Source: a virus
Lineage: Duplodnaviria; Caudoviricetes
Length of the DNA stretch: 64,000 nt
Reading direction: 5' to 3' (one strand)
Virus record (IMG/VR): IMGVR_UViG_3300034523_000162
Location: 1,842 to 65,841 of that record
Part shown: in pieces, positions 21,890 to 43,179 of the stretch
Layout of the letters: each line of letters begins with the position of its first letter
How positions within the stretch are numbered: the first letter of the stretch is position 1
The notes under the pieces: generated by a model
Databases searched by the model: none
What the model saw: the letters and a program-made list of their open reading frames with translations, nothing else
What the model was told of the DNA's origin: nothing
Made by a program: the position numbers and the translations under genes

Positions 21890-22738
21890 TTAGCGGGCGT
21901 TGCGTTCGGCGATGTACGCCTCGTACAGCTCTGGCTGTTGCATCAGGACTTGGGCCTCGGCTTCCTCGGGGGACAGCGAGCTGTCGGCCTTGCGCAGCTC
22001 GACCACGGCGCTGGCAATGCGCGCTTCGGCGTCGCCGCCGCCTTCGATGTGGCCTTTGCCAATCACGGTGGTGCGGTCTTTGCCGCCCTTGCCGGTGCCC
22101 TGGTCGCCGGCGCCGGTGGTGATGGCGTCCTGGGCGGCTTTAAACAGGCGCTCCAGCTCCTCGCCGTCAGCCTTGGTGGTCATGCCCTTCTCGACGCGCA
22201 TCAGCAGCGGGCCCAGCTTGTCGGCGCTGGTCGGCAGCTGGTCGAAGGCCTCGGCCTTGGCGATGAACGCCGCGACCGCCTTCTCGTCGGCCTGCTTGGC
22301 GATCAGCGCCTCGGCGGCGTCGACGCGGGTCTGCATGGCCTTGAACATCTTGGCCACCGGCTCTGGCAGCTCGCCCAGGGCCTTGGTGATGTCGTCGACT
22401 GGCTCACCGCCGGCGTTTTTGGCGATGGTCGCCTTCGCTTCGTCCAGCTGGGTGGTCAGGGCGGCGACTTGACCGGCGAGCTGGTCGTTTTTGGTGACCA
22501 GCTCCTCGTTGGCCAGGGTCAGCTCGCCCAGGGCCTCCTCGGCCTTGGTGACGGCTTCGGTCAGGGCATTCAGCTCGGCCTGGGTGGGTTCTTTCGGCAT
22601 TGGTTCGTCCTCGGTGTCATCGCGCTTGAACAAAAGGACCGCGCTGCCCTGGTTGGCACCGCGATCGACTAGGGAAATCTCGCCAAGCACCACGTTGTGC
22701 AGCGTGGTTTTCTTGGTTTTCTTTGCTGGGGCGGTCAT
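21890..22738 (-). CDS. Scaffold protein with an N-terminal protease-fold fragment
   Basis: EISLVDRGAN near the N-terminus, coiled coil, C-terminal PELYEAY. Confidence 0.75.
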   Translation of the reverse strand: MTAPAKKTKKTTLHNVVLGEISLVDRGANQGSAVLLFKRDDTEDEPMPKEPTQAELNALTEAVTKAEEALGELTLANEELVTKNDQLAGQVAALTTQLDEAKATIAKNAGGEPVDDITKALGELPEPVAKMFKAMQTRVDAAEALIAKQADEKAVAAFIAKAEAFDQLPTSADKLGPLLMRVEKGMTTKADGEELERLFKAAQDAITTGAGDQGTGKGGKDRTTVIGKGHIEGGGDAEARIASAVVELRKADSSLSPEEAEAQVLMQQPELYEAYIAERNAR

Positions 22739-23139
22739 TGCTGGTCCTCGTAATCGCGGCGGATGCCCTTACCGCCGATGCTGAAAGCGGCCAGGCTGCC
22801 GTTGCGAACGCGGGCCTTGATGCCTTCGTCGTGCAGCTTCATGCCGATGAACCACCCGGCTTTGCCCAGGTCGATGCCCAGGGCCTTCTGGATGTCGCGG
22901 GTCAGGACGATGCTCTCGACCACCTCGCCGACCGGCTGGCCGCCGTGCATGACCTTGGCGACGCGGGCCTCGCTCACGTAGCGGTGCGCCATCTTGCGCA
23001 CCTCGGTTTCGTCGATTGCGTCGTTCTGCCGGTCCCACACCAGTTGGCCGGCCTCCTCGTACACGGTCACGAAGCCGTAAACCACGCCCTCGTCCTCGTC
23101 GAACTTGGCGATTTCTGCCTGGTACTGGTATGAATCCAT
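22735..23139 (-). CDS. XkdF-like prohead serine protease
   Basis: VVYGFV..DRQNDAI..KVMH..VVES..GWFIGMK..AFSIGG. Confidence 0.85.
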   Translation of the reverse strand: MDSYQYQAEIAKFDEDEGVVYGFVTVYEEAGQLVWDRQNDAIDETEVRKMAHRYVSEARVAKVMHGGQPVGEVVESIVLTRDIQKALGIDLGKAGWFIGMKLHDEGIKARVRNGSLAAFSIGGKGIRRDYEDQQ

Positions 23140-23234: not shown

Positions 23235-23765
23235 TTAGGCTTCGGGGTCGGCGTCGCTCTCGTCGTCGAGCCCGGTGGCCTCGTATTCGTGGTAGGGGAT
23301 GCCCATCAGCAGGGCTGCGGCGCTGTCGAGGCTCCCGTCGATCGCTGCTCGCGCGGTGTCCTCGCCTTCACCGTCATCGAGCAGCCGGGCGGCCGCGTAC
23401 ATGTCCTGGATAACCAGGATGAAAAGGGTTGCCAGGCGCTGGACCGGGTCGGCCTCGCCGATGTTGGCCTGCGCTGCGACAAAGTCGTCGATCTTGCCGG
23501 GCTCATTCCAGCCCTGGACGACGTTGTATTCGTCGTTCTGGCCCAGGAACACCTTAGCCAGGGCCGTGGCCTCGGCGACGTCGGCGGCGCTGACGGCCTC
23601 CTGGTCAATCTCCCCGCTGGAGAACTTGACCAGGCGGTTAAGCGCCTCGCTGCCCAGGTCGCCGACCAGGTCGCGCACAACGGCCTGGTCGCCAAGGTAC
23701 GGCTTGCCGTCCTTTTCCGCAGCGGCGATCGACAGGTCTAGCGTGTGGTCGGTTTTGTTAAGCAT
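23235..23765 (-). CDS. Acidic helical hypothetical protein (candidate partner/immunity protein)
   Basis: AGGAG RBS before ATG 23765; very D/E-rich; directly downstream of the ART-containing gene. Confidence 0.7.
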   Translation of the reverse strand: MLNKTDHTLDLSIAAAEKDGKPYLGDQAVVRDLVGDLGSEALNRLVKFSSGEIDQEAVSAADVAEATALAKVFLGQNDEYNVVQGWNEPGKIDDFVAAQANIGEADPVQRLATLFILVIQDMYAAARLLDDGEGEDTARAAIDGSLDSAAALLMGIPYHEYEATGLDDESDADPEA

Positions 23766-23821: not shown

Positions 23822-26800
23822 TCAACTGTTCGGCAATAGGGTCACGTCGACGACGATCTGGCTGGTGGAGCCATACCCGTCGCTCTGGCCGCCGTGGTGG
23901 ACGGCGGTGACCACCATCCGCTGGTTGGCCGGCAGCAGCACTTCCAGCTCCCCGGGGTGCTTGCTGATGGTTTCGCCCTTGGGCGTGCTCGATCCGGTAC
24001 CGGCATACAGACCTTTGACGCCGTCGCCGGCGGTCATGCGGAAATGTACGTTTCCGCCCCAAACCTTCGGGCTGATCGAGGTCGAGCTGATGCCGAATTC
24101 CTGGATGATCTTGCCCGATCCCGACTTGACGATCTGGTCCACCATGGCCGCGCTCATATTGACCTTGCGGCTCAGCACCGTGCCGGGCTTGAGCGTCACG
24201 CCCGCATCCAGGATGCCCTGGTGGGCGTCCAGCGCCTGCTTGCTTGGCTTGCCGGAGCGGAAACTGGCGTTGATGTCGTGGTAAGCGGCGCCGGTGTAGG
24301 CGCGCACGGCGTTCTGCTTGGTGGAGTCCAGCTTGGCAAAGTTGGCCGACGATTGGGCCGCGTAGGTGCCCTGGGTAAGGCCTGCGCCGTGCTTGAGGGT
24401 CTGCGGCACCGCCGCATGGCTGGCGCCCTCGGCCTTGCCCAGCACCGGATACAGCGCCAGCTTGGCCAGGACCTGCTGGGGGCTTTTCAGCGGCTTGGCC
24501 TGCTCGGCCAGGGCCTTGATGGCCTGCGCCATGGTCTTGCCGCTGCCGACGTCGATCGACTTGAGAGGTGGCGGCGGATTCAGCTGGAGGTTTACGTCCT
24601 CGATGACCTGCTGCAGGTAGCTCGCAACGTGCTTCGACGGCGACTGCGGCTGGTAAGCCTTGAGCGCCTGCAGGTTGCCGGCGACGGCCATGGAGTGGAT
24701 CGCGCCGACCTCGTCCTGGTTGGCCTTGTTGTTCTCCGCCTTCGACGACAGCCCCTTGCCGGCGCCGTTCCAGTTGTGGAAGTCCGGCGCTTCGGTCAGG
24801 CGCTTGGGGTCGATCTTGACTGCGCCCTTGGTGGCGGCCTTGGCCTTGGCGCTGACGGCCGCTGCGGCGGCGGTGGCTTCCTGGGCGGCCCCTGCCAGGG
24901 TCTTCGGCTTGCCGGCGGCCGCCTTGACCGCTGCCGGGGTGATGTCGGCGCCGCCGATCGCCGCCAGGGTGTCGGCCTTGTACGCGGCGGCTTTCTTGCC
25001 GTAGGTGTTGCTGCCGAAGGTGATGGCGGCCAGCTGGGCCTCGGCGTCGGCCTTGGATAGCTTACCGGCGTGGAAACCGGCGCCGATCGCCTCGACCTGG
25101 TCGACCTTGGCCAGCAGGGTCTTGTTGGGGTTGGCGGCCGACGACAGCGCCGCCGTGGCGGGCTTGCTCGGCATCGCCGGCGCGACCTTTGGCACGCTGG
25201 TGGTGGCGACGGCGGCGGCCGTGGCGCTTTCAACGGCGGCGGTGGCCTTTGCTCGAGCACTGGTCGGCGTCGGCATCTGCCCGGCCGCGTAGGCCATGAA
25301 CTTGACCATATTCGCCTTGTTGTTGGGCGATTTGGCGGTGCTCATCTTGTCCTGGACGTCGTTGATGATCTTCTGTGCGTGCTCGGTGTCGCCGGCGGCG
25401 AGTGCGTCGTCGAGCGCCTTGGTGGTTTTGTTCCAGAAGACGAGCCCGGTGGGTGCGGTGGCGGTGTAGTTGGGCTTTTTGGCTGCCGGCTTGGCCGCTG
25501 CGGCGGCGCTGGTGGCGGCCTGGACGGCGGCGGTGGCCTTCACCCGGGCGGCGCCGCCTTGTTTCAGGGCGCCGGCCAGGTTGCCGATCGACTCGTACTG
25601 GGCCATGTCCACCGCTCGATCGCCCAGGGTGTCCATCAGGCCGGTCATAAACGACTGAATCTTGTCTGCCGGCTGGCCGGCCATGCCTTTCAGCTCGGTG
25701 TGCTTCTGCGCCCACCACTGAGACGAGTTGACCTTGGCGCCAGCGGCTGCCGGCGTCGCCCCGGGCTGCGCGGCCACCCAGTTAGCGAGGGTCTTGAGGT
25801 TGTTGGCCTCGGTGACGCTGTTCCCCGGGCCCAGGCCCTTAAGGTACGCCTCGGCCGAGGCCGCCCCGCCTTGTTTCATCTTCGTCTCGATGGCGGCCAT
25901 GTGCGCCACGCCGATCGTCTTTTGGTACGACGAGCCCTCGAAGTCCTTTGATTTCAGCGCGGCAGGTGCGCCCGTCGGCGCCGGCGGGATGGCAAAGGAG
26001 GCCGGAGCCTCGGCGGCCTTGACCTTCACTGGGGCGGTGGCCGGCTTCGCGGCAGCCTTGGCCTGCGCGGCGGCGGCCTTTGCGCCGACTGCGCTGCCGC
26101 CGCCGGCGACCAGGGCCTCGTTGAACGCCGTGGGGTTGGCCTCGTAACCCTTGAGCATGATCGCTTCCTTGCGCGCGATCAGGGTTTCGGCCAGCTCGGC
26201 CTTGCCCTTGGCGTCGCCCGGGCCGTGCTTGTCGACCAGCTGCTTGATGGTGGCGTCGCTGATCGAATCCAGGCGGGCCGCGCTCTGCGCCAGCTGGGTG
26301 GAGGTCATGCCGGCGAACACAGCCGCCGACTGGGGGTTGCTCTTGGCGTCGCGCAGGGTGTCCCACTCGTTCGCGTGCTTGTTGAACGCGGCGCCCTTGG
26401 GAGCGCCCTGGGCGCGGTACAGCAGCGCCCCGCCCGGGTCGATGCGCGAGGCCGTGCCGTTGCCGGTGACGGCGATGTTGTCGAAGCCCAGGCCGACGGC
26501 GTCCCAGTTGGCCAGCCAGGCGTCGACCGCGAAGTGCTTCTGTGCCTGGGCGATGTTCTGCGGGCTGGCGTTCACCTTCTCCAGCGGGCCGTCCAGCATG
26601 CGGCTGGCCACGCCGGTACCGCCGCCGTGCTCGGTGCCCAGGTCGACCGGGCGCATTTCCGGGGCGTGGGCGCCGGCGGCGTTGTACAGCCGCGACGCCA
26701 GCACCTCGTTGTGCGCCATGTCGGGGTTGCCCTTGGTGCCCTTGACCAGCCACTTGGCGCCGCTGGCGTCGGTGTAGATGGCGCCCGGGTTGGAGCCGCC

Positions 26801-28216
26801 GGGCTTGGGCGCGGAGTACTTCAGGTCGCTGACCTTCATCGGCCCGCGTGGCGAGGCCTTGCCGCCGGTACCGGGCGTGGTGCCGGCACTGGACAGGCCC
26901 TGGGCGTGGCCCACGGCCTTCTGCCACTCGTTCCACACGCCTTTCTGGTACGGGTTGGCGCCCTTCCCGGGCTCGGTGGGCTTGATGGCGTGCAGGCCGA
27001 CCAGGTCGCCGTCGTTGGCCATGGCGGCGATCGCCTGGATTTTCTTGTTGGCCGACTTGAGGGCGCTGTTGTCCGGGTTCTTGCCGGTGAGCATGGTGGG
27101 CGCGAAGGCCCCCAGCTGCGCCTTGGCGCCGGCGATCGCCTGGGCGGCGGTGACGGCCTCGGCCCCGGGCTTGGCGGCCGCTCCCACAGCACCTGGTGCG
27201 GCGCTGGCCATGGCTGCGCCTCCCTTGGGCTTGAACTGGCCCCCGCGCGGGTCGCCCTTCGGGTAGCGGGCCTGCTTGGCGTTGCCGCCCTTCCCCTTGC
27301 CCTTGCCGTCGCGCTTGAGCAGCTCGGCGACGAAGTCGGCGATGCGGGTGGCGCGCTCGGCCTCGGCCTTGGCCAGCGGCCCGGACAGCAGGTCGATGGC
27401 GATCTGCTTGTCACGCATGCGGTTGAGGTGCTTGCCCAGCTGCATCGGCGGTACCAGCTTCACGCCCTGGGTTTCCCAGCCTGCGTCGGCCGGGGTGCCG
27501 CCCACGCGCTTGGCGGTGTAGTACCGCGCGACGCTGGTGTCGCCCTCGTAATCGCCCAGGATGCCGGTGATCTCGACCTTTAGGCCGCTCTCCTCCCACG
27601 CTTCCTTGATGGCGTTGGCCTGCAGGCGCTTGATGCCCGGCTCGGCGCCGCCCTTGGGGAAGGTGTGCTCATACCCGCCGAAGTGGTTGGTCGGCTCGAC
27701 GACCCACACGCGGCCATCGGGCTCCTGGATGACCACGCCGGCGCCGGGGCGCTTGGGGTTGCCCTGGTAGTCGAACTTCTGCGGCAGGGGCGGCTCTTTG
27801 CCCGGCATCTGGCCCGCCACGGCGTTCCAGCCTGCCTTGGTGGTCGGCGGGGTCCAGGGGGTGAACGGGACGCCGTTCAGCGCCTTCGGTACCGAGCTGC
27901 CCGGGGCGAAGGTGGCCACCGCCTTGCGGTCTATCCAGGTGGCGCGCGGGCTCGGGGCGGTGGGGAAATGCACGGTGACGGGGTTGCCGGCGTCGTCTGC
28001 CTTGGGGTGTGGCGCGGCATTCAGGGTCGCGCCCAGCGCTTCCTTGGCTTGCGCCAGGGCCTGCTGGGCGGTGTGCACGGGGCTGGAGCCGAAGCCGCCC
28101 CCGCCGCCCTTGGGCTTGAACTGGCCACCCTTGGGGCTGCCCTTGGGGAATCGGGGCTGTTTGGCCCCCTTGGTGACAGCTTCTAAGCGTTCCAGCAGTT
28201 CGGCGACAGACGCCAT
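23822..28216 (-). CDS. Multi-enzyme head-module protein: Nudix hydrolase + HipA/PI3K-like kinase + VIP2-type ADP-ribosyltransferase
   Basis: Nudix box PKGGAEPGIKRLQANAIKEAWEESGL; kinase GSNPG..LVK..NEVLA..DAWLANWD..DN..RIDPG; ART YT..Y..IN..LSR..SSTS..ELEVLL. GAGGGGGAG RBS before ATG 28216. Confidence 0.85.
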   Translation of the reverse strand: MASVAELLERLEAVTKGAKQPRFPKGSPKGGQFKPKGGGGGFGSSPVHTAQQALAQAKEALGATLNAAPHPKADDAGNPVTVHFPTAPSPRATWIDRKAVATFAPGSSVPKALNGVPFTPWTPPTTKAGWNAVAGQMPGKEPPLPQKFDYQGNPKRPGAGVVIQEPDGRVWVVEPTNHFGGYEHTFPKGGAEPGIKRLQANAIKEAWEESGLKVEITGILGDYEGDTSVARYYTAKRVGGTPADAGWETQGVKLVPPMQLGKHLNRMRDKQIAIDLLSGPLAKAEAERATRIADFVAELLKRDGKGKGKGGNAKQARYPKGDPRGGQFKPKGGAAMASAAPGAVGAAAKPGAEAVTAAQAIAGAKAQLGAFAPTMLTGKNPDNSALKSANKKIQAIAAMANDGDLVGLHAIKPTEPGKGANPYQKGVWNEWQKAVGHAQGLSSAGTTPGTGGKASPRGPMKVSDLKYSAPKPGGSNPGAIYTDASGAKWLVKGTKGNPDMAHNEVLASRLYNAAGAHAPEMRPVDLGTEHGGGTGVASRMLDGPLEKVNASPQNIAQAQKHFAVDAWLANWDAVGLGFDNIAVTGNGTASRIDPGGALLYRAQGAPKGAAFNKHANEWDTLRDAKSNPQSAAVFAGMTSTQLAQSAARLDSISDATIKQLVDKHGPGDAKGKAELAETLIARKEAIMLKGYEANPTAFNEALVAGGGSAVGAKAAAAQAKAAAKPATAPVKVKAAEAPASFAIPPAPTGAPAALKSKDFEGSSYQKTIGVAHMAAIETKMKQGGAASAEAYLKGLGPGNSVTEANNLKTLANWVAAQPGATPAAAGAKVNSSQWWAQKHTELKGMAGQPADKIQSFMTGLMDTLGDRAVDMAQYESIGNLAGALKQGGAARVKATAAVQAATSAAAAAKPAAKKPNYTATAPTGLVFWNKTTKALDDALAAGDTEHAQKIINDVQDKMSTAKSPNNKANMVKFMAYAAGQMPTPTSARAKATAAVESATAAAVATTSVPKVAPAMPSKPATAALSSAANPNKTLLAKVDQVEAIGAGFHAGKLSKADAEAQLAAITFGSNTYGKKAAAYKADTLAAIGGADITPAAVKAAAGKPKTLAGAAQEATAAAAAVSAKAKAATKGAVKIDPKRLTEAPDFHNWNGAGKGLSSKAENNKANQDEVGAIHSMAVAGNLQALKAYQPQSPSKHVASYLQQVIEDVNLQLNPPPPLKSIDVGSGKTMAQAIKALAEQAKPLKSPQQVLAKLALYPVLGKAEGASHAAVPQTLKHGAGLTQGTYAAQSSANFAKLDSTKQNAVRAYTGAAYHDINASFRSGKPSKQALDAHQGILDAGVTLKPGTVLSRKVNMSAAMVDQIVKSGSGKIIQEFGISSTSISPKVWGGNVHFRMTAGDGVKGLYAGTGSSTPKGETISKHPGELEVLLPANQRMVVTAVHHGGQSDGYGSTSQIVVDVTLLPNS

Positions 28217-28226
28217 TGGCTCCCCC

Positions 28227-29654
28227 TCATGCCGCAAGTGCGGCCGGTACGTATCGGATGAAAATCGTGCAACGGCAGGCGGGGTGCAGCGGGGGCATCT
28301 GCACGCCGTAGCCGTGGCCGGTGTTGAATTGAACGTTGATGTGGATGCCATAGCCTTCGGCGCCCCTGTTCAGCGCCGGCATGGGCAGACAGATGGGACA
28401 GGTGCGCTCGTCTTTGGCAGTGAGCCAAGTTTTCCGCATCGCATCCTCGTCCACAAGACCGGCCTGTGCGGCCTGCTGCCAGCTGGCCAGGATGCCGGCG
28501 TTGGTGGCGCGCAGGCTCTCGGTGCGGGCGATCATCTCGCTCCGGTACCGGCGGTACTTGCGCGAGTAGGCCTCGACCATCTTGTCGATCTGCGCCGGCG
28601 TCAGGGGCTTGCCGGTGTCCATGGCCGCTTGCAGGGTCTTGTCGTACCGGAAGTCACGCAGGCGCCGGTCGAAGATGCCGTCCAGGGGCTTGCCGGAGCC
28701 GTCGACGGCGAACGTCTGCGCCCCGCCGGCGGCCCGGCTGACCTTGCCGCCCAGGTTCATGCGGCTGGCGCTTTTCTTCTCATGGAACGTCTGCAGCTGC
28801 TTGCGGAAGGCGCCCACGGCGGCGGCCTGGCGCTCGGTGAGGCCGACGATCTGGCGCACGTCGCGTGCGGTGTCGCGGGGGTTGGCGCCGTTCTTGAGGC
28901 CCTGGTTGACGACGTGGCGGATGCCTTCCCGGGCCTTTTCGTCGATCTCGACGATCAGGTCCAGCTCGTACTTGTCCAGAAAGCTGGTCACCTTGGGGTT
29001 CAGGGCGTCGAACTGGAAGACGGCGGCCTTGGGCTTGAAGTCCGGCTTTCCACCTGGTGTAAAGCCGTCATCCCCGCCCCCGCCGCCTGGCCCTTTACCA
29101 CCTGGTGGTAAAGCGTTGCCGCCATTTGGTAAAGCCAGGGCCGGTTTTGGTAAAGCCTGGACGGGTTTTGGTAAAGCGGCCCCGGGCTTGGCCAGGTCGC
29201 GCAGCGTCTCGATGTAGGCGTCCTCGATCTCGCCGACGGCGTGCTCGATCGCGCGCAGGGCGCCCCGGCCGATGGTGGCCCGGCCGACGCCGGTACCGGC
29301 GCCGTAAATCGTGGCCAGCGACGCCATGGCGCCGATCCGCGGTGCCTCACCCTGGGCGCTGGTGACGAAGGCCTGGCGCAGGGCCTGGCGGGCCTCGACC
29401 AGGTAGTCGCTGGGGTCGCCCATGCCCAGGGCCTCGAAGACGGCGGCCAGGTCGCCGGTGGCGATGGCCACTTCCAGCGCCTCGAGGTCGGTCTTGCGGT
29501 ACAGGCGCGCATACGCGGCCTCTACGGCGTCGGCCAGCGGCCCCTCGAAGCGCTTGGCCAGGGCGTCGAGGGCGTCGGCGATCGCCGCCTCACGCCCGCC
29601 GGCGGCCTTCTCGATGCGGGTGGCCGGCGCGGTCGGTCGGTTGAATACCCACAT
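28227..29654 (-). CDS. Minor head protein (MuF/SPP1 gp7 family)
   Basis: IARTES..KTWLTAKDERTCPIC..PPLHPACRC; follows the portal. Confidence 0.9.
   Translation of the reverse strand: MWVFNRPTAPATRIEKAAGGREAAIADALDALAKRFEGPLADAVEAAYARLYRKTDLEALEVAIATGDLAAVFEALGMGDPSDYLVEARQALRQAFVTSAQGEAPRIGAMASLATIYGAGTGVGRATIGRGALRAIEHAVGEIEDAYIETLRDLAKPGAALPKPVQALPKPALALPNGGNALPPGGKGPGGGGGDDGFTPGGKPDFKPKAAVFQFDALNPKVTSFLDKYELDLIVEIDEKAREGIRHVVNQGLKNGANPRDTARDVRQIVGLTERQAAAVGAFRKQLQTFHEKKSASRMNLGGKVSRAAGGAQTFAVDGSGKPLDGIFDRRLRDFRYDKTLQAAMDTGKPLTPAQIDKMVEAYSRKYRRYRSEMIARTESLRATNAGILASWQQAAQAGLVDEDAMRKTWLTAKDERTCPICLPMPALNRGAEGYGIHINVQFNTGHGYGVQMPPLHPACRCTIFIRYVPAALAA
29106..29177. repeat. Four TGGTAAAGC repeats at exact 21-bp spacing inside muF
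   Basis: Copies start at 29106, 29127, 29148 and 29169. Confidence 0.85.
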
Positions 29655-29657
29655 GGC

Positions 29658-31121
29658 TTATGCCTCCTCCCGCTTGGGCTTGGCGGGCTTGGCTGGGCCC
29701 TGCTGGGGCTTTTCCTGGCCAGCCGGTGCCTTGGCCCCGGGGTTGCCCTCGTCGCCGTACAGGCGCGCGTCGCGCTCGACGGTGTCCTGGTCGGTGTCCT
29801 CGGGCGCCTCGGGCAGGCCCATGCGGCTGCGCAGGGCGTTCTCCAGCTCGCGGTCGGGGAACAGCTGCGCCCCGGAGCCGGTCATGGCGGTGAGCATGCG
29901 GCCCAGCTGGTCCAGGTCCAGGTTCTCGATGTCGCCCGGGGCCAGGGTTGGCATCAGCTCGTACTTGAGCCCGTTCTTGCGCCACAGCTCGGGCAGCAGG
30001 ATGCGGTTGATCGGCGCCGCGACCTGCTTGAGGAAACTGCCGATCGCCGTGGCAAACAGCGCGGTCTTGTCGCTGGACAGGGCGAAGCTGCCGGCGGCGG
30101 TCTGCCCCAGGAACAGGAAATCGGCCAGGACGGTCATGGCGATGCGGCGGTCGTAACGGTCGACGATCGCCGTGGTGTCGAACTGGCGGGTGCCGCCGCT
30201 GCTCAGCAGGCTGACTTCGTACAGGTATTGGCCCTTGTCGTCGCGGGTGTTGGGCAGCAGCAGCCCCTCGTTGGTGTCGCGCTTGATCCCCCGGGCGAGG
30301 TCCTTGTACGCCTTGAGCGTGCGCTTGTCCTCGGGGCTGGCGTCCTGCCTGAACAGCGAGCCCGGGGCGCGGACCACCGGCAGGCCGGCCAGGTCGCGCT
30401 CGATGCCGATGCCCTCGATCTCCTCGATGCGGGTCTTGAAGAACCACGGGCGGTAGGCGCTGCGCAGGATCGACCGGCCCTCGGGGTTGTTCTTCACGCT
30501 CTGCGTGCGGAACAGCAGCATGTTCTCGATCGGGATGAACACCTGCGAGCCGTTCTCGGGCTGCTGGTACAGGCCGAGGATGTCGCCGTTCTCGGCGATC
30601 TCCCAGCGCTCGACGGTTTCCTGGGCTCGAAGCGCCATCTTGCGGATACCCCAGTACCCGTCGTCGAAGTTGGAGCGCAGGGACGGGTCCTTGTTGTCAC
30701 GGCCCTTGCGGCGCTTGAGGGGCACCTCCATCGGCGCGAAACCGAACGGCAGCATGGTGAGGATTTCCGTCAAGGTGTCCTCCCAGGTGCTCTCCATGTC
30801 CTCAAACAGCATTCCGGCGGCCAGGTCGGCCATTTCCTGGGCCTTTTCGGTGTCGTCGGCCGGCTGCATGCTCCAATCGCTCTGCCGGATCAGCATGTTG
30901 ATGGCAAACAGCATTGCCCCGACGACGGGGTCGTTGTCGGCCATCTGGCGGTACACGCGCATGCCCTTGCGGCCTTTCAGCTCGGGCAGGAACTCCTCGT
31001 TGACGTAGCCGCTGGCGTGCTTGAGACCGGTGCTGCCGACCTCCTCCGGGGCAAACTTGCGGATGTCTTCGGTGGGTTCCTCGGTGGCGTCGAGGATCTT
31101 GGCGACGGCTGGTTCGGTCAT
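29658..31121 (-). CDS. Portal protein
   Basis: Follows TerL; NPEGRSILRSAYRPW..EGIGIERDLAGLP..GSFALS (DUF935-type portal). Confidence 0.9.
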   Translation of the reverse strand: MTEPAVAKILDATEEPTEDIRKFAPEEVGSTGLKHASGYVNEEFLPELKGRKGMRVYRQMADNDPVVGAMLFAINMLIRQSDWSMQPADDTEKAQEMADLAAGMLFEDMESTWEDTLTEILTMLPFGFAPMEVPLKRRKGRDNKDPSLRSNFDDGYWGIRKMALRAQETVERWEIAENGDILGLYQQPENGSQVFIPIENMLLFRTQSVKNNPEGRSILRSAYRPWFFKTRIEEIEGIGIERDLAGLPVVRAPGSLFRQDASPEDKRTLKAYKDLARGIKRDTNEGLLLPNTRDDKGQYLYEVSLLSSGGTRQFDTTAIVDRYDRRIAMTVLADFLFLGQTAAGSFALSSDKTALFATAIGSFLKQVAAPINRILLPELWRKNGLKYELMPTLAPGDIENLDLDQLGRMLTAMTGSGAQLFPDRELENALRSRMGLPEAPEDTDQDTVERDARLYGDEGNPGAKAPAGQEKPQQGPAKPAKPKREEA

Positions 31122-32692: not shown

Positions 32693-33157
32693 TTACGCTT
32701 TCCCCGCTCCCATCGCCTTGGCGGTGTTCTCGGCGGCCTTGAGCAGCGACGCCAGGCCGGCGCCGACGATGCTCAGGGCGCCTGGCTCGCCGTCCGGGTC
32801 GGTGATGGCGGCCTTGATCGGGCTGTCGAGGCCCAGGTACTTGGCCCGGCGGTCCATGACCTTGAGGCCCTTGTCGATCGCCTGCAGGTGGCCTTTGCGG
32901 ATCTGCCCTTCCAGCGCCATCCACATTTGGTCCAGGCGCATCAGCTCCAGCTGCTTGACCACCTGGGCGTCTTCCTGGGTGGCCTCGCCCAGCTGCTTGA
33001 GCAGCTCGCTGACGTAGCCGTGGGCGGTCGAGACGCTGATGCCCAGGGCGTCGGCGATCTCGGTGTAACTGGCGCCGCCCTTGCGCAAGGCGAAGGCCTT
33101 ACGCTTGCGCTCCTGGGCCAGGAGCTGGTCGGGGCGGGTGCGGCTCTTTTTCGTCAT
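32693..33157 (-). CDS. terS: Terminase small subunit (HTH)
   Basis: LRKGGASYTEIADALGIS HTH, RRAKYLGLD; directly upstream of terL. Confidence 0.75.
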   Translation of the reverse strand: MTKKSRTRPDQLLAQERKRKAFALRKGGASYTEIADALGISVSTAHGYVSELLKQLGEATQEDAQVVKQLELMRLDQMWMALEGQIRKGHLQAIDKGLKVMDRRAKYLGLDSPIKAAITDPDGEPGALSIVGAGLASLLKAAENTAKAMGAGKA

Positions 33158-34518
33158 GCGGTCACTCCTTTGCTGGCGCGGGACTTGCCGAGGCGCTCGG
33201 CCTCAACCTGGGAGAACTGCTTTTGCTCCTCGAAGTGGACGGCCACCATGCCGGTCCAGTCCTGCCACCGGCGGATGATGATGTCGGCGTACTTCTCGTC
33301 CAGCTCGTTCAGGCGGGCCCGGCGGCCGATCTTCTGGCAGGCGATCAGGGTGGTGCCGCTGCCGCCGAAGGTGTCCAGGACGATCTCGCCGCGCTTGCTG
33401 CTGTTGGCGACGAAGCGCTGCACCAACTTCACCGGCTTCATGGTCGGGTGCAGCTCCGATCGGCTCGGCTTGTCCTCGTACACGACGCTGGTGATGACCT
33501 GGTCGAGCAGCTCCTGGCACAGGGTTTCGAGCTGGCCACGGCTCAGGGCCTTGAGGTCCTTGGTGTCGTCGACGACGGTGGTCTGCGTGAAGTCCTGGCA
33601 GTAGTAGTGCGCGGCGCCTGGCTTCCAGCCGTACAGGATGGGTTCGTGGCGCCAGTTGTAGTCCTGGCGGCTCAGGGTGGCGCTGGACTTGACCCATATC
33701 AGGTTCTGCTTGAGCAGCCAGCCGGCGTCGATCATGGCCCGGCGGAAGTTCAGGCCCTCGCTGTCGGCGTGGGCGATGTAGACGGCGCCGCCTGGGCGGG
33801 TGACGGCGATCGCGGCCTGGTAGAAGCCCAGCAGGAACTCATAGAACTGCTGGTCGCTCATGTCGTCGTTCTGGATGCTGCCGGCCTTCGTCTCGTAGGC
33901 GACGTTGTACGGCGGGTCGGTCCACACCAGGTCGGCCTGGTCGCCCTGCATCAGGTAGCCCAGGGCCTGGACGCTGGTGCTGTCGCCGACGTGCAGGCGG
34001 TGCTCGCCCAAAATCCACAGGTCGCCCTGGCGGCTGACCGTCTCCTCGCGCTCGCCCGGGACGTCGTCGTCGTCGGTTAGACCCTGCTCCTCGGTTTCCT
34101 CCAGCGGGCCCTCGGCGTCGACGACGAGGCTGTCGATCAGCGCCTGGAGCGCCGGGTTGTCCGTCTCAACCTCGGCCAGGAGGCTGTTCAGCATCTCCTG
34201 GTCGGTGGTGGCCATGCCCCCGATCGGGTCGAGGGTGGCCAGAATCAAAGCCTCCTCCTCCTCGCTCAGCTCGACGTAAACCACCGGCACCTCGGCCTCG
34301 CCGCGCTCCAGGGCCACGCCCACGCGCAGGTGGCCGTCGACGATGTAGCCGGTCAGGCGGTTGACGATGACGTTTTGCACCCAGCCGACCTCATCGAGCA
34401 CGGCCTTGATGGCGCTGCGCTGGAGGTCGTTGTGGACCCTCCAATTCCTTGGGTTCGCTAAAAGCTGGCCTGGCTCCTCAGTCCCGCTCCCGACAATGCG
34501 ACTCTGCCAGCTGCTCAT
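33154..34518 (-). CDS. ParB-N domain + amino (N6-A/N4-C) DNA methyltransferase
   Basis: NPRNWRVH..IVDGHLR (ParB-N); TDPPYN, HPTMKP, LDTFGGSGTT (MTase). GGAGG RBS before ATG 34518. Confidence 0.9.
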   Translation of the reverse strand: MSSWQSRIVGSGTEEPGQLLANPRNWRVHNDLQRSAIKAVLDEVGWVQNVIVNRLTGYIVDGHLRVGVALERGEAEVPVVYVELSEEEEALILATLDPIGGMATTDQEMLNSLLAEVETDNPALQALIDSLVVDAEGPLEETEEQGLTDDDDVPGEREETVSRQGDLWILGEHRLHVGDSTSVQALGYLMQGDQADLVWTDPPYNVAYETKAGSIQNDDMSDQQFYEFLLGFYQAAIAVTRPGGAVYIAHADSEGLNFRRAMIDAGWLLKQNLIWVKSSATLSRQDYNWRHEPILYGWKPGAAHYYCQDFTQTTVVDDTKDLKALSRGQLETLCQELLDQVITSVVYEDKPSRSELHPTMKPVKLVQRFVANSSKRGEIVLDTFGGSGTTLIACQKIGRRARLNELDEKYADIIIRRWQDWTGMVAVHFEEQKQFSQVEAERLGKSRASKGVTA

Positions 34519-35080
34519 GCGGACACCTCCCGCCATTGCGGTGTTTGCCCGCATTGCAGTTGAAGCAAAGGATTTGGAATCCCTCCGGGAAGTCGTTGTG
34601 GTAGAGCCATTTCCACATATCGGTTTTGCCGATCTGCCGGCGATGGATTGCCCCTCCACCATTCACATGGTCGATGGTCAGGAATAGCGGCTCCCTCTCG
34701 CCGCAGCACGCGCACTTCCCTCCCATGCGCTCCAGGACCATGTCGCGGATCTCTAACCGTTTCTGGTTGCGATAGGCGCGCTGCTGCGATTGATATTTCG
34801 GCGCATTGGACGCCTTCCATTCCTTGTTTCTGACGGATATCCCCGCCTTGTTTTGCTGGTAGTCGGCGGCTGCTCGGGCGGCCTTTTTCTTCTGTGCAGC
34901 GCCGCTCTGCCGGCATTCCCGGCATCCCTTCGACGTCTCTTGCGGGAAGTCTTGGATAGGCTTTTGCTTCCCGCAGGTGTAGCACTTTCTGGTCGCGGCG
35001 CACTCCGCGCACTTGCGAAGCGATACGAAGCTCTCGGTCGGGCGTTCTTGTTTGCAGTAATGGCATGTTTTCGTGTTCAT
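34478..35080 (-). CDS. HNH endonuclease with N-terminal CxxC zinc ribbons
   Basis: CACCGE..LTIDHVNGGG..QILCFNCN; visibly lower GC than flanks. Confidence 0.85.
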   Translation of the reverse strand: MNTKTCHYCKQERPTESFVSLRKCAECAATRKCYTCGKQKPIQDFPQETSKGCRECRQSGAAQKKKAARAAADYQQNKAGISVRNKEWKASNAPKYQSQQRAYRNQKRLEIRDMVLERMGGKCACCGEREPLFLTIDHVNGGGAIHRRQIGKTDMWKWLYHNDFPEGFQILCFNCNAGKHRNGGRCPHEQLAESHCRERD

Positions 35081-42534: not shown

Positions 42535-43179
42535 TTAGCTGATTAGCTCGTTGAAGCGGTCGACGGCGGCTTGGACCACCTTGCCGGCGCGCTTGTTGAG
42601 GCTCGGGTATGGCGTCTCGATGATCGACCGGCCCTGGTCGTGCGCGGTGCGGTAGCCCGGGCGGTCGGGGATTTCCCCGTCCAGGGTGTGAAAGCGGGTC
42701 TTGTCCAGGTAGGTGCGGGCGGCGGCGATCTCGACGTCGCTGTTGCCGACCTTGTTGAGCGCGTAGACGATTCGCTCGATGGGTACACCGTGCTTATCCG
42801 CCAGGGTGTTGGCGAGGGTGACGGTGGGCTCCAGGTCGTCGAGGCAGAGGCCGGTGGGCAGGATCAGCAGGTTGACCGCCTTGGCCATGGCGACCGTCTC
42901 GTCGGTGGCCTGTGGCCCGCCGTCGATGATGATCATGTCGGCGTCACCGACCTGGGCGATGCCCGAGGCGACGCTGCCGCTCATCTGCACATGCAGCTCG
43001 GGCAGCACGTTGTTGACCAGCCGCCGGCGCATCCAGCTGGTGACTGTGCCCTGGCGCACGTCCAGGTCGATGATCTTCGTCTTCCAGCCGGCGTTGGTGA
43101 AGGCGACGGCCAGGGCGCGGTCGATCGTCGACTTGCCCGGGCCTCCTTTCTGCGATGCGCATCCGATCATGTAGGGCAT
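42535..43179 (-). CDS. parA: ParA family partition ATPase (short, type Ib)
   Basis: QKGGPGKST deviant Walker A, IDLD.RQ, IIIDG.P; 214 aa with no N-terminal HTH. Confidence 0.9.
   Translation of the reverse strand: MPYMIGCASQKGGPGKSTIDRALAVAFTNAGWKTKIIDLDVRQGTVTSWMRRRLVNNVLPELHVQMSGSVASGIAQVGDADMIIIDGGPQATDETVAMAKAVNLLILPTGLCLDDLEPTVTLANTLADKHGVPIERIVYALNKVGNSDVEIAAARTYLDKTRFHTLDGEIPDRPGYRTAHDQGRSIIETPYPSLNKRAGKVVQAAVDRFNELIS

What the first reader, a model, noticed from the sequence alone, without database searches (positions are those of the whole stretch)
23822..28216. Three-enzyme head-module protein: Nudix hydrolase + kinase-like + ADP-ribosyltransferase
Seen: a 1464-aa gene between muF and the prohead protease, with a Nudix domain (~27440-27750), a HipA/PI3K-like kinase domain (~26160-26810) and a C-terminal R-S-E ART domain (~23830-24330), joined by Ala/Lys-rich linkers. 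Established: ExE in R-S-E ARTs (here ELE) is typical of Arg-specific transferases such as T4 Alt/Mod; Alt is capsid-packaged and injected; MuF loci can carry toxin domains. Inference: a virion-packaged, injected host-takeover or anti-defence effector. The Nudix could trim ADP-ribosylated targets, recycle ADPR, or destroy nucleotide immune signals. Here the enzymes are in a separate gene rather than fused to MuF.
Basis: partly seen in the sequence, partly recalled or inferred. Interest (0 to 1): 0.88.

Follow-up and report, generated by a model that had tools for sequence, protein, structure and literature searches.

The report
Phage head gene with three enzymes
A 1464-residue protein encoded in the head-assembly genes of a 66-kb Pseudomonas phage joins a Nudix hydrolase, an unnamed atypical kinase and an ADP-ribosyltransferase, and is most likely carried in the capsid and delivered into the host with the DNA, a known phage strategy in a new combination.

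Summary

The gene follows MuF in the head module of a complete 65.8-kb siphovirus-type genome. One correction: a conserved 176-aa acidic gene lies between it and the XkdF-type protease.

The same three modules recur in 74 of 80 related viral loci. They are fused in this head-module type and split in ~90-kb phages (giant kinase-ART protein, acidic protein, Nudix protein). In Yersinia phage fHe-Yen8-01 the depositors label all three split products particle-associated. Relatives are fused to MuF, portal and the anti-CBASS enzyme Acb1.

Best reading (0.7): a capsid-packaged, ejected multi-enzyme ("polyvalent") effector for host takeover or anti-defence. The kind is known (T4 Alt, MuF toxins, polyvalent proteins). 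The conserved triad and the very large unnamed kinase family (4535 clusters) are new variants. Targets, substrates and packaging are untested.

The parts
23822..28216 (-). The 1464-aa three-enzyme gene (P0002); stop TGA 23822-23824
   Evidence: ORF and translation; start with SD GAGGGGGAG 10 nt after the MuF stop; GC3 0.90; 99% identical protein named only 'NUDIX domain-containing protein [Pseudomonas juntendi]'
28118..28150 (-). Motif copy 1, FPKGSPKGGQF (residues 23-33), N-terminal to the Nudix unit
   Evidence: Only two such motifs lie in real frames of the window, both in this gene. 69 motifs in 237 related proteins against 0 in one shuffle
27347..28009 (-). Nudix unit (residues 70-290): Pro-rich conserved lead-in plus Nudix fold (Pfam 155-269 = 27410-27754)
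   Evidence: Pfam NUDIX E 2.2e-13. Aquifex Ap4A hydrolase 3i7u E 4e-7. Residues 70-280 match the separate Nudix proteins of ~90-kb phages at 51% identity. K204-E205-x2-E208-E209 conserved
27233..27265 (-). Motif copy 2, YPKGDPRGGQF (residues 318-328), between Nudix and kinase
26117..26848 (-). Atypical protein-kinase-like domain (residues 457-700)
24821..26116 (-). Basic Ala/Lys-rich middle region (residues 701-1132, net +21, 29% Ala); holds a small three-helix unit at ~1027-1091
   Evidence: Composition. Variable among even close homologues. Model residues 20-90 are confident and helical; 91-131 have low confidence
24407..24820 (-). Conserved pre-ART region (residues 1133-1270) that always travels with the ART
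   Evidence: BLASTP blocks q1133-1462 in homologues. G1153, S1157, N1163, N1166, A1177 conserved in at least 85% of 166 rows. Confidently folded, no fold match listed
23825..24406 (-). C3/VIP2-like R-S-E ADP-ribosyltransferase (residues 1271-1464): R1350, S1378-T-S1380, E1423-x-E1425
23235..23765 (-). Conserved 176-aa acidic protein (pI 4.1, net -25) directly downstream; no known family
   Evidence: ATG with AGGAG RBS. Homologous to fHe-Yen8-01 gp130 'particle associated protein' (tblastn E 5e-13) and Dolphis gp118 (1e-8). 11 homologues. Found after the ART in 11 of 44 fused and 17 of 30 split loci. No Pfam, PHROG or NCBIfam hit
28227..29654 (-). MuF-like head morphogenesis gene directly upstream
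   Evidence: Pfam Phage_Mu_F E 7.5e-13; PHROG 3517 E 9.7e-58
29658..31121 (-). Mu-type portal gene
   Evidence: Pfam Portal_Mu E 6.8e-25; PHROG 113 E 6.5e-75
22735..23139 (-). XkdF-type prohead serine protease (134 aa)
   Evidence: Pfam Peptidase_S78_2 E 1.5e-15

Best explanation
The gene encodes a capsid-internal 'polyvalent' effector. It is made late with the head proteins and taken into the prohead next to MuF and portal. The basic Ala/Lys-rich linkers probably lie against the packaged DNA. The protein is then ejected into the next host cell with the DNA.

Once there, three pre-made enzymes act before any phage gene is expressed:
- An Arg-type (ExE) ADP-ribosyltransferase modifies host proteins, as T4 Alt does.
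- An atypical CtkA/HipA-fold kinase phosphorylates host targets. T7 kinase is the functional analogue.
- A divergent Nudix pyrophosphatase removes an NDP-X compound, such as ADP-ribose, an NAD-derived alarm signal or an RNA 5' cap.

Shown here: the three folds, their catalytic residues, the head-module position, and the conserved linkage of the three modules across phage types. Inferred: packaging, ejection, processing, and every substrate.
For: Folds and catalytic residues:
- Nudix reaches Pfam E 2.2e-13. E205, E208 and E209 are present in 127 of 129 aligned rows; the other 2 are gaps.

Head-module position: the order is TerL, portal, MuF, this gene, acidic ORF, XkdF protease, 282-aa ORF, cement/scaffold, MCP.

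Physical link to head proteins in relatives: of 110 homologues, 6 carry MuF and 6 a portal domain in the same chain. One of them, P0082, reads portal, Hint, kinase, Nudix, ART.

Split versus fused: of 80 viral loci, 44 have Nudix before kinase. Of those 44, Nudix and kinase share one ORF in 42, and all three modules share one ORF in 27. Another 30 have kinase and ART in one giant ORF (27 of 30) with Nudix as a separate gene downstream.

Particle association: the depositors label fHe-Yen8-01 gp129 (kinase-ART), gp130 (acidic) and gp131 (Nudix) 'particle associated'.

Anti-defence link: 13 of 110 homologues carry an Acb1 domain. In P0012 it scores E 3e-34 and lies N-terminal to the Nudix.

Precedents read in passages: T4 Alt is head-packaged and injected, and ARTs and Nudix proteins fused to MuF or portal are predicted to be packaged (PMC9503650). 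Polyvalent proteins are described in PMC5512222. T7 kinase as a broad anti-defence enzyme is seen as listing and abstract start only (PMC13645617).
Against: - There are no proteomic, expression or ejection data for this phage. The 'particle associated' label is an annotation on homologues only 33-51% identical; no paper was found and the method is unseen.
- No capsid-targeting signal or protease site was identified.
- The Nudix box departs from the canonical GX5EX7REUXEEXGU. The first Glu is Ile195 (Leu in 92 of 129 family rows), Arg is Lys204, and this protein has one extra residue. Hydrolase activity is plausible but not assured.
- The kinase has no sequence-level match to any solved kinase or Pfam family. 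My assignment of catalytic residues rests on motif order and the model's secondary structure, not on a superposition.
- In 17 of 44 fused-type loci my ART query was not found in the same ORF. I did not separate contig truncations from other C-termini.
- All survey sets were gathered with this protein as query, so the co-occurrence figures are biased towards its own architecture.
- 43 of the 150 best kinase-domain representatives show neither Nudix nor ART by BLASTP. The kinase therefore also works outside the triad.
Confidence: 0.7

Rival explanations
1. The gene is a toxin-immunity module of the MuF polymorphic-toxin kind. The ART is a growth-arresting toxin carried by the phage, for competition between strains or for steering lysis against lysogeny. 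The acidic 176-aa protein directly downstream is its stoichiometric immunity protein or chaperone. The Nudix is an enzymatic safeguard that processes ADP-ribose marks or the NAD pool in the producing cell.
For: [quoted passage not shown]
- The acidic ORF is conserved after the ART in both architectures, in 11 of 44 and 17 of 30 loci.
- The order ART, small protein, enzyme in the split phages parallels Bxa with a binding immunity protein Bsi and an ADP-ribosylhydrolase BAH (PMC11699363, abstract).
Against: - MuF is a separate gene here, not fused.
- The acidic protein's homologue is itself labelled particle-associated. That is odd for a pure immunity protein, unless it travels bound to the toxin.
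- The triad occurs in ~86-95-kb isolated phages of five genera and in a genome with no tyrosine integrase. Jamet et al. found MuF toxins almost only in temperate phages.
- At 176 aa the ORF is larger than the <150 aa class of that paper.
- A Nudix enzyme cannot restore an unmodified residue (established chemistry, recalled).
Confidence: 0.12
2. The three activities form one coupled NAD/ADP-ribose pathway rather than three independent effectors. For example, the ART writes ADP-ribose on a target, the Nudix trims it to phosphoribose so that host erasers cannot remove it, and the kinase-fold domain phosphorylates the same target or a ribose or nucleotide hydroxyl.
For: - The three modules stay together whether fused or split, in 74 of 80 loci.
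- 44 of the 150 best kinase representatives carry both Nudix and ART.
- Nudix enzymes are known to convert protein ADP-ribose to phosphoribose in vitro (recalled, not from a call).
Against: - The modules also occur apart: 43 of 150 representatives have the kinase alone and 17 have Nudix and kinase without the pre-ART or ART region.
- Other unrelated effector domains (Acb1, WGR, ChaB, ART-PolyVal) are added freely. That fits a cargo rack better than a pathway.
- There is no biochemical precedent for the kinase step.
Confidence: 0.1
3. The protein is not delivered at all. It is a late-expressed cytoplasmic or prohead-bound enzyme set that acts in the producing cell, for example by modifying head or scaffold proteins or managing nucleotide pools during assembly. 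Its place in the head module reflects only co-expression.
For: - It lies inside the late head operon.
- Iyer et al. 2022 note that such contextual associations may have alternative meanings; I saw only the opening words of that sentence in a truncated passage (PMC9503650).
Against: - Homologues are covalently fused to portal or MuF.
- The split homologues are labelled particle-associated.
- Fusion to Acb1, an enzyme whose known role is to destroy host immune signals, points to action in the infected cell.
Confidence: 0.08

Closest known systems
T4 Alt (head-packaged, injected Arg-specific ADP-ribosyltransferase)
   Same: R-S-E ART with an ExE motif. PHROG 802 'Alt-like' matches residues 1268-1390 (E 1.4e-6). 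Encoded with head genes and expected to be delivered with the DNA (Alt biology as described in PMC9503650).
   Different: Alt is a single-enzyme protein with a T4-specific capsid-targeting sequence cut by gp21. Here the ART is the C-terminal third of a 156-kDa chain with two other enzymes, in a siphovirus-type head module with a MuF gene and an XkdF protease. The PHROG match covers only profile positions 392-513 of 674.
MuF polymorphic toxins (Jamet et al. 2017, PMC5576092; e.g. the E. faecalis EFV ART toxin)
   Same: A toxin-type ART in the packaging module beside MuF, followed by a small ORF, with delivery on DNA injection hypothesised. 6 of 110 homologues are true MuF fusions.
   Different: The enzymes are in a separate gene after MuF. 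There are three enzymes rather than one C-terminal toxin. That paper's text has 0 occurrences of 'Nudix' or 'kinase'. The triad is also present in ~90-kb isolated phages.
Polyvalent proteins (Iyer et al. 2017, PMC5512222) and virion-packaged NAD/ADPr enzymes (Iyer et al. 2022, PMC9503650)
   Same: Several unrelated enzymes in one phage polypeptide, predicted to be packaged and injected. ARTs are the commonest modifiers. Nudix fused to MuF, portal or protease is described. Kinases are listed among the domains.
   Different: The polyvalent kinase they describe lacks the whole C-terminal subdomain, has an insert between a conserved His and Asp, and is mainly in Verrucomicrobia-Chlamydia and Bacteroidetes. 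The domain here has a helical C-terminal half, a W-L-A-N-W-D catalytic loop, and is found in Pseudomonadota and actinophages. The 2022 paper has 0 occurrences of 'protein kinase', 'HipA', 'PI3K' or 'Acb1'. Their supplementary architecture lists could not be opened and may contain this architecture.
Helicobacter pylori CtkA (3akj/3akk/3akl), an atypical Ser/Thr kinase
   Different: 11-15% identity, with no HMMER-level similarity. CtkA is a stand-alone protein of a conjugative element acting on eukaryotic cells. This domain is embedded in phage virion proteins.
Yersinia phage fHe-Yen8-01 gp129-gp130-gp131 and relatives (Dolphis, Jeremy, ECML-606-1, phiT5282EW, Touem01, Mecenats66, ST4)
   Same: The same four modules. 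Kinase (41-44% identity) and pre-ART plus ART (33-35%) sit at the end of a giant protein, followed by the acidic protein and a Nudix protein (51%).
   Different: They are split over three genes in the order kinase-ART, acidic, Nudix. They sit near tail-fibre and terminase genes of ~86-95-kb genomes, not fused in a MuF-protease head module.
T7 protein kinase gp0.7
   Same: A phage kinase reported to disarm many defences by pervasive phosphorylation (PMC13645617, listing and abstract start only). It is the most plausible functional analogue for the middle domain.
   Different: It is an early gene product made after injection, not a virion protein, and no sequence or fold relation was tested here.

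Membership tests
Nudix hydrolase superfamily (PF00293) | Match to the family profile above the curated threshold | tested here: met
   50.8 bits against a cutoff of 21.1, E 2.2e-13, residues 155-269. Ap4A hydrolase 3i7u E 4e-7.
Nudix hydrolase superfamily (PF00293) | Canonical Nudix box GX5EX7REUXEEXGU (motif recalled) | tested here: inconclusive
   The core Glu residues E205, E208 and E209 and G211-L212 are present and near-invariant (127 of 129 rows). The first Glu is I195 (L in 92 rows), Arg is K204 (K in 122 rows), and this protein has one extra residue, K196.
Nudix hydrolase superfamily (PF00293) | Pyrophosphatase activity on an NDP-X substrate | not testable with these tools
   Needs enzyme assays.
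R-S-E clade ADP-ribosyltransferases (PF03496, C3/VIP2/Alt-like) | Profile match above threshold and the ART fold | tested here: met
   [not shown]
R-S-E clade ADP-ribosyltransferases (PF03496, C3/VIP2/Alt-like) | Catalytic Arg, Ser-Thr-Ser and E/Q-x-E motifs | tested here: met
   R1350 (151 of 166 rows), S1378 (111 S, 48 C), S1380 (142), E1423 and E1425 (165 of 166 each). That ExE implies an Arg target is recalled knowledge.
T4 Alt family | Full-length similarity to Alt, with packaging through a capsid-targeting sequence | tested here: inconclusive
   PHROG 802 matches only residues 1268-1390 to profile positions 392-513 of 674 (E 1.4e-6). Packaging is not testable here.
HipA kinase family (PF07804 / PF20613) | Profile match above threshold | tested here: not met
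   [not shown]
PI3K/PI4K catalytic family (PF00454) | Profile match above threshold | tested here: not met
   [not shown]
Protein-kinase-like superfamily | Bilobal fold with beta3 Lys, alphaC Glu, catalytic Asp, Mg-binding Asn and DFG-type Asp in order | tested here: met
   [not shown]
MuF polymorphic toxins | N-terminal MuF domain fused to a C-terminal toxin domain | tested here: not met
   MuF is the separate upstream gene 28227-29654, with its own stop. 6 of 110 homologues do have the fusion.
Polyvalent proteins (Iyer 2017) | Two or more domains of disparate biochemical activity in one polypeptide of a phage or plasmid | tested here: met
   Nudix, kinase and ART lie in one ORF of a complete phage genome.
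Polyvalent proteins (Iyer 2017) | Delivery into the host with the DNA | not testable with these tools
   Only indirect evidence: fusions to portal or MuF and the 'particle associated' annotation of homologues.

The most novel reading that the evidence does not exclude
The triad is one coupled, pre-loaded 'write-and-lock' system built on NAD/ADP-ribose, delivered at time zero. The ART marks host immune or transcription proteins. The Nudix trims the mark to phosphoribose, or erases ADP-ribose-based alarm signals. The unnamed kinase family, arguably the most widespread virion-borne kinase of phages, phosphorylates the same targets or the ribose. Together these would disarm signalling immunity before any phage gene is read. 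The fused and split forms would be the signature of this functional coupling.
Probability: 0.15. Interest if true: 0.85.

Novelty: new variant of a known kind. Interest (0 to 1): 0.6.

Why it matters
Phage proteins delivered with the DNA act before any phage gene is expressed, so they are the first line against host immunity. Only a few, such as T4 Alt, have been studied.

This gene gives a compact, testable example of a very large family. Its kinase-fold domain alone has 4535 cluster representatives at E<=1e-3, yet it has no Pfam model and is labelled 'hypothetical' everywhere I looked.

The fused and split forms, together with the Acb1 fusions, single out the kinase, the divergent Nudix and the conserved acidic partner as candidates for new anti-defence activities. 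This is timely given the report that T7 kinase broadly disarms defences (listing and abstract start only).

Tried and rejected
- Nucleotide search of isolated phages with the gene found nothing. The nearest TerL in isolates is below 38% identity, so there is no characterised close relative.
- Literature: 0 papers mention fHe-Yen8-01. The Mecenats66 paper has 0 occurrences of Nudix, ADP-ribosyl or kinase. The search MuF+Nudix+kinase+ADP-ribosyltransferase+phage returned only the two Aravind-group papers. The searches on CtkA+phage, HipA-like+phage+ART, virion+kinase+anti-defence and Nudix+Thoeris showed no description of this triad in the listings. Supplements are closed and may hold it.
- A profile search of solved structures with alignment A1 matched only ARTs, not kinases.
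- Self-BLAST found no internal repeats. My impression of a repeated helical motif before the kinase and before the ART was not tested further.
- I predicted a complex of the C-terminal module (1133-1464) with the acidic protein. It gave no verdict (score 0.00, controls not run), which is neither for nor against binding.
- The ESM Atlas gave nothing usable for the acidic protein.
- The [HFYW]P[RK]..G[QKR][FWY] motif as a general targeting or cleavage signal is not supported. It occurs in only 14 of 80 loci and is absent from the six split-form proteins checked.
- A MuF-effector fusion by frameshift: the effector frame is open for 45 codons upstream of its ATG, but it is +1 relative to MuF and I saw no obvious slippery site. 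I judged this to be chance in a GC-rich genome and did not test it.
- The Acb1 search of the phage's own genome found nothing, but the control rang nowhere, so it is uninformative.

Full report
**1. The observation.** The window is GC-rich (0.63-0.71). On the minus strand one ORF runs 23822..28351.

- Its upstream 45 codons overlap the end of the preceding gene in another frame.
- The preceding gene stops at TGA 28229-28227.
- GC3 in this frame is 0.90.
- Pfam places NUDIX at residues 155-269 (E 2.2e-13) and ADPrib_exo_Tox at 1294-1461 (E 1.5e-8). Both are above their curated cutoffs. There is also a sub-threshold HipA_C hit at 483-527 (E 0.039).
- The segments between the domains are basic and Ala/Lys-rich: 291-456 net +13; 701-1132 net +21 with 29% Ala. 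The whole protein has pI 9.7 and net charge +53.

The next gene downstream is not the protease but a 176-aa acidic ORF (23235-23765; ATG behind AGGAG; pI 4.1, net -25). The XkdF-type protease follows it (22735-23139, Pfam Peptidase_S78_2 E 1.5e-15).

**2. Where it sits.** The window is bases 1842-65841 of a 65,841-bp IMG/VR virus record with direct terminal repeats, rated 100% complete.

- Minus-strand order: DNA methylase, small HTH protein, TerL, Mu-type portal, MuF, this gene, acidic ORF, XkdF protease, 282-aa ORF, cement/scaffold protein, major capsid protein. Then come the adaptor, tail terminator, a minor tail protein, a 1932-aa tape measure and fibre-like proteins. This is a siphovirus-type layout.
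- The other arm has RecT/exonuclease genes, a RusA-like resolvase and a ParA-like protein.
- No tyrosine integrase and no tRNA were found.
- A 99% identical protein is recorded from Pseudomonas juntendi, named only 'NUDIX domain-containing protein'.
- No isolated phage is close: megablast found nothing, and TerL is below 38% identity.

**3. Nudix.** Besides Pfam, the best solved relative by sequence is the Aquifex Ap4A hydrolase 3i7u (E 4e-7). NCBIfam gives only sub-threshold Nudix and RppH hits.

- In 129 aligned family members the box reads P-K-G-x2-E-x-G-[L/I]-...-K-E-A-[W/Y]-E-E-[T/S]-G-L.
- E205, E208 and E209 are present in 127 rows; the other 2 rows are gaps.
- The first Glu of the canonical box (recalled motif) is replaced: Ile195 here, Leu in 92 rows.
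- The canonical Arg is Lys204 (Lys in 122 rows).
- The metal-binding core is therefore kept in a consistently divergent box.
- The unit that travels as a separate Nudix protein in other phages starts at about residue 70, so the Pro-rich lead-in belongs to it.

**4. Kinase-fold domain.** Residues 440-720 alone find 4535 cluster representatives (50% identity clusters) at E<=1e-3 and 1070 at E<=1e-30. Some proteins hold 2-5 copies, and stand-alone forms of 251-291 aa exist.

- Six sequences (five stand-alone forms and this domain) give only sub-threshold HipA_C, HipA_2 or APH hits to the N-lobe.
- ESM Atlas neighbours are all 'hypothetical protein' without a common Pfam family.
- With a 47-sequence alignment, AlphaFold2 gives pLDDT 92.4 and pTM 0.88.
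- Foldseek ranks H. pylori CtkA first (E 2.6e-6, TM 0.58). It is followed by an aminoglycoside phosphotransferase, actin-fragmin kinase, PI3K/Vps34 and LepB.
- Conserved positions follow the kinase order: G-S-N-P-G loop, V-K492 in the third strand, N-E504 in the following helix, W-L-A-N-W-D572, D579-N580, and I-D593-P-G-G.
- In the viral structure library the same domain appears in Gordonia phage proteins, in an HK97-type portal fusion, and in proteins named ADP-ribosyltransferase or Nudix.

By sequence it belongs to neither family.

- In 166 aligned rows R1350 is R in 151 and K in 14. S1378 is S in 111 and C in 48. S1380 is S in 142. E1423 and E1425 are each present in 165.
- ExE, rather than QxE, points to arginine targets (recalled rule).
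- A confidently folded, conserved region (1133-1270) always precedes the ART in relatives. It has no listed fold match.

**6. The family.**

- A full-length search gave 110 proteins among 8000 scored candidates. By precomputed Pfam, 68 carry NUDIX, 48 PF03496, 21 WGR, 13 Acb1, 3 ChaB, 6 MuF and 6 a portal family. I confirmed Acb1 (E 3e-34), WGR, ChaB, ART-PolyVal, portal and Hint on six of them.
- tblastn against isolated phages matched 25 records. Eight phages of ~86-95 kb (Escherichia, Enterobacter, Pseudomonas, Yersinia, Morganella, Aeromonas) matched in three pieces. One faecal contig matched the Nudix only. Twelve actinophage records matched the kinase only. Four Pseudomonas phages matched the ART only.
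- In fHe-Yen8-01 and Dolphis the kinase and the pre-ART plus ART lie back to back at the end of a 2146- or 1222-aa protein, and the Nudix is a separate gene two genes downstream. The small gene between them is homologous to the acidic ORF here (E 5e-13 and 1e-8).
- The fHe-Yen8-01 record labels all three products 'particle associated'.
- In 80 IMG/VR loci (112 confirmed, the best 80 kept):
  - 44 have Nudix before kinase. In 42 of them the two share one ORF, and in 27 all three modules share one ORF. MuF lies upstream in 33, the XkdF protease downstream in 28, and the acidic ORF was detected in 11.
  - 30 have the split order. In 27 of them kinase and ART share one ORF. The acidic ORF was detected in 17; MuF and XkdF in none.
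  - 6 show only a Nudix hit.
  - One locus (L060) counted as fused is really a split locus whose Nudix is fused to a second kinase copy.
- Among the 150 best kinase-domain representatives, 83 carry the Nudix (82 of them N-terminal to the kinase), 62 carry the ART, 44 carry both, and 43 carry neither.

**7. How it most likely works.**

- Shown: three enzyme folds with conserved catalytic residues in one late head-module gene; conserved linkage of the same modules, fused or split, in unrelated phage types; covalent fusion of relatives to portal and MuF; fusion of relatives to an anti-CBASS enzyme.
- Annotated by others, method unseen: particle association of the split homologues.
- Inferred: the protein is incorporated into the prohead near portal and MuF; its basic linkers lie on the DNA; it may be cut by the XkdF protease; it leaves the capsid with the DNA. 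The ART, kinase and Nudix then reprogram or disarm the host at time zero.

I put this at 0.7. Its weak points are listed in the Against line.

**8. Rivals.**

- A toxin-immunity reading, with the acidic ORF as immunity protein or chaperone and the Nudix as enzymatic safeguard. It borrows from MuF toxins and Bxa-Bsi-BAH. Confidence 0.12.
- A coupled ADP-ribose pathway. Confidence 0.10.
- Action only in the producing cell. Confidence 0.08.

**9. Comparison and novelty.** The kind is known. Relevant precedents are T4 Alt, MuF polymorphic toxins (PMC5576092, passages), polyvalent proteins (PMC5512222, passages) and the survey of virion-packaged ART, Macro, NADAR and Nudix proteins (PMC9503650, abstract and passages).

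I did not find these points in the text of those papers or in eight literature searches:
- the conserved Nudix, CtkA-like kinase and ART triad;
- its fused and split forms;
- the conserved acidic partner;
- the Acb1 fusions.

The polyvalent-protein kinase of Iyer 2017 is described with features (no C-terminal subdomain, His...Asp insert, Verrucomicrobia and Bacteroidetes) that do not fit this domain. I therefore rate this a new variant of a known kind, interest 0.6. A specialist would not be astonished, but a huge unnamed virion kinase family with a ready test case is useful.

**10. Limits.** There is no experimental evidence for this phage. The survey sets were seeded with this protein. tblastn thresholds decide the presence or absence calls.

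Noticed in passing
window 23235-23765 (-): A 176-aa strongly acidic protein (pI 4.1, net -25) with no family hit lies directly after the ART. It is conserved in that position in both fused and split phage types. Its homologue in fHe-Yen8-01 is labelled 'particle associated'. It could be a chaperone, an inhibitor or a DNA mimic.
   Followed up: partly
window 28118-28150 and 27233-27265 (-): The motif [WYFH]-P-K-G-x-P-x-G-G-Q-[FW] occurs twice, flanking the Nudix unit. Related H-P-R-x3-G-[KQ]-F motifs precede stand-alone kinase domains. There are 69 in 237 proteins against 0 in one shuffle, but the motif occurs in only 14 of 80 loci, so it is clade-limited. Its function is unknown.
   Followed up: partly
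window 28217-28351 (-): The effector frame stays open for 45 codons upstream of its ATG, overlapping the MuF C-terminus in the +1 frame. This is probably chance in GC-rich DNA. A frameshift-made MuF fusion was not tested.
   Followed up: no
whole window (G000:C1:1842-65841): This is a complete 65.8-kb genome with terminal repeats. It has no tyrosine integrase and no tRNA, and it has a ParA-like gene (42535-43179). A near-identical copy sits on a ~65.7-kb contig of a Pseudomonas juntendi assembly, so it may be a plasmid-like prophage. The nearest isolate TerL is below 38% identical.
   Followed up: partly
window 33154-34662 (-): A 502-aa N6/N4 DNA methylase (Pfam E 2.6e-31) sits directly upstream of the small HTH (terminase-small-like) gene, at the head of the packaging operon.
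   Followed up: no
proteins P0113 (3416 aa), P0139, P0145 (7004 aa); locus L060: Some relatives carry 2-5 copies of the kinase-fold domain in giant proteins. In L060 the separate Nudix gene is fused to a second kinase copy.
   Followed up: no
[not shown]
   Followed up: partly
window 22735-23139 (-): The best PHROG for the 134-aa XkdF-type protease is labelled 'DNA methyltransferase' (phrog_1530, E 5e-21), matching profile positions 236-357 of 379. This suggests that the PHROG is built on fusion proteins and its label is misleading.
   Followed up: no
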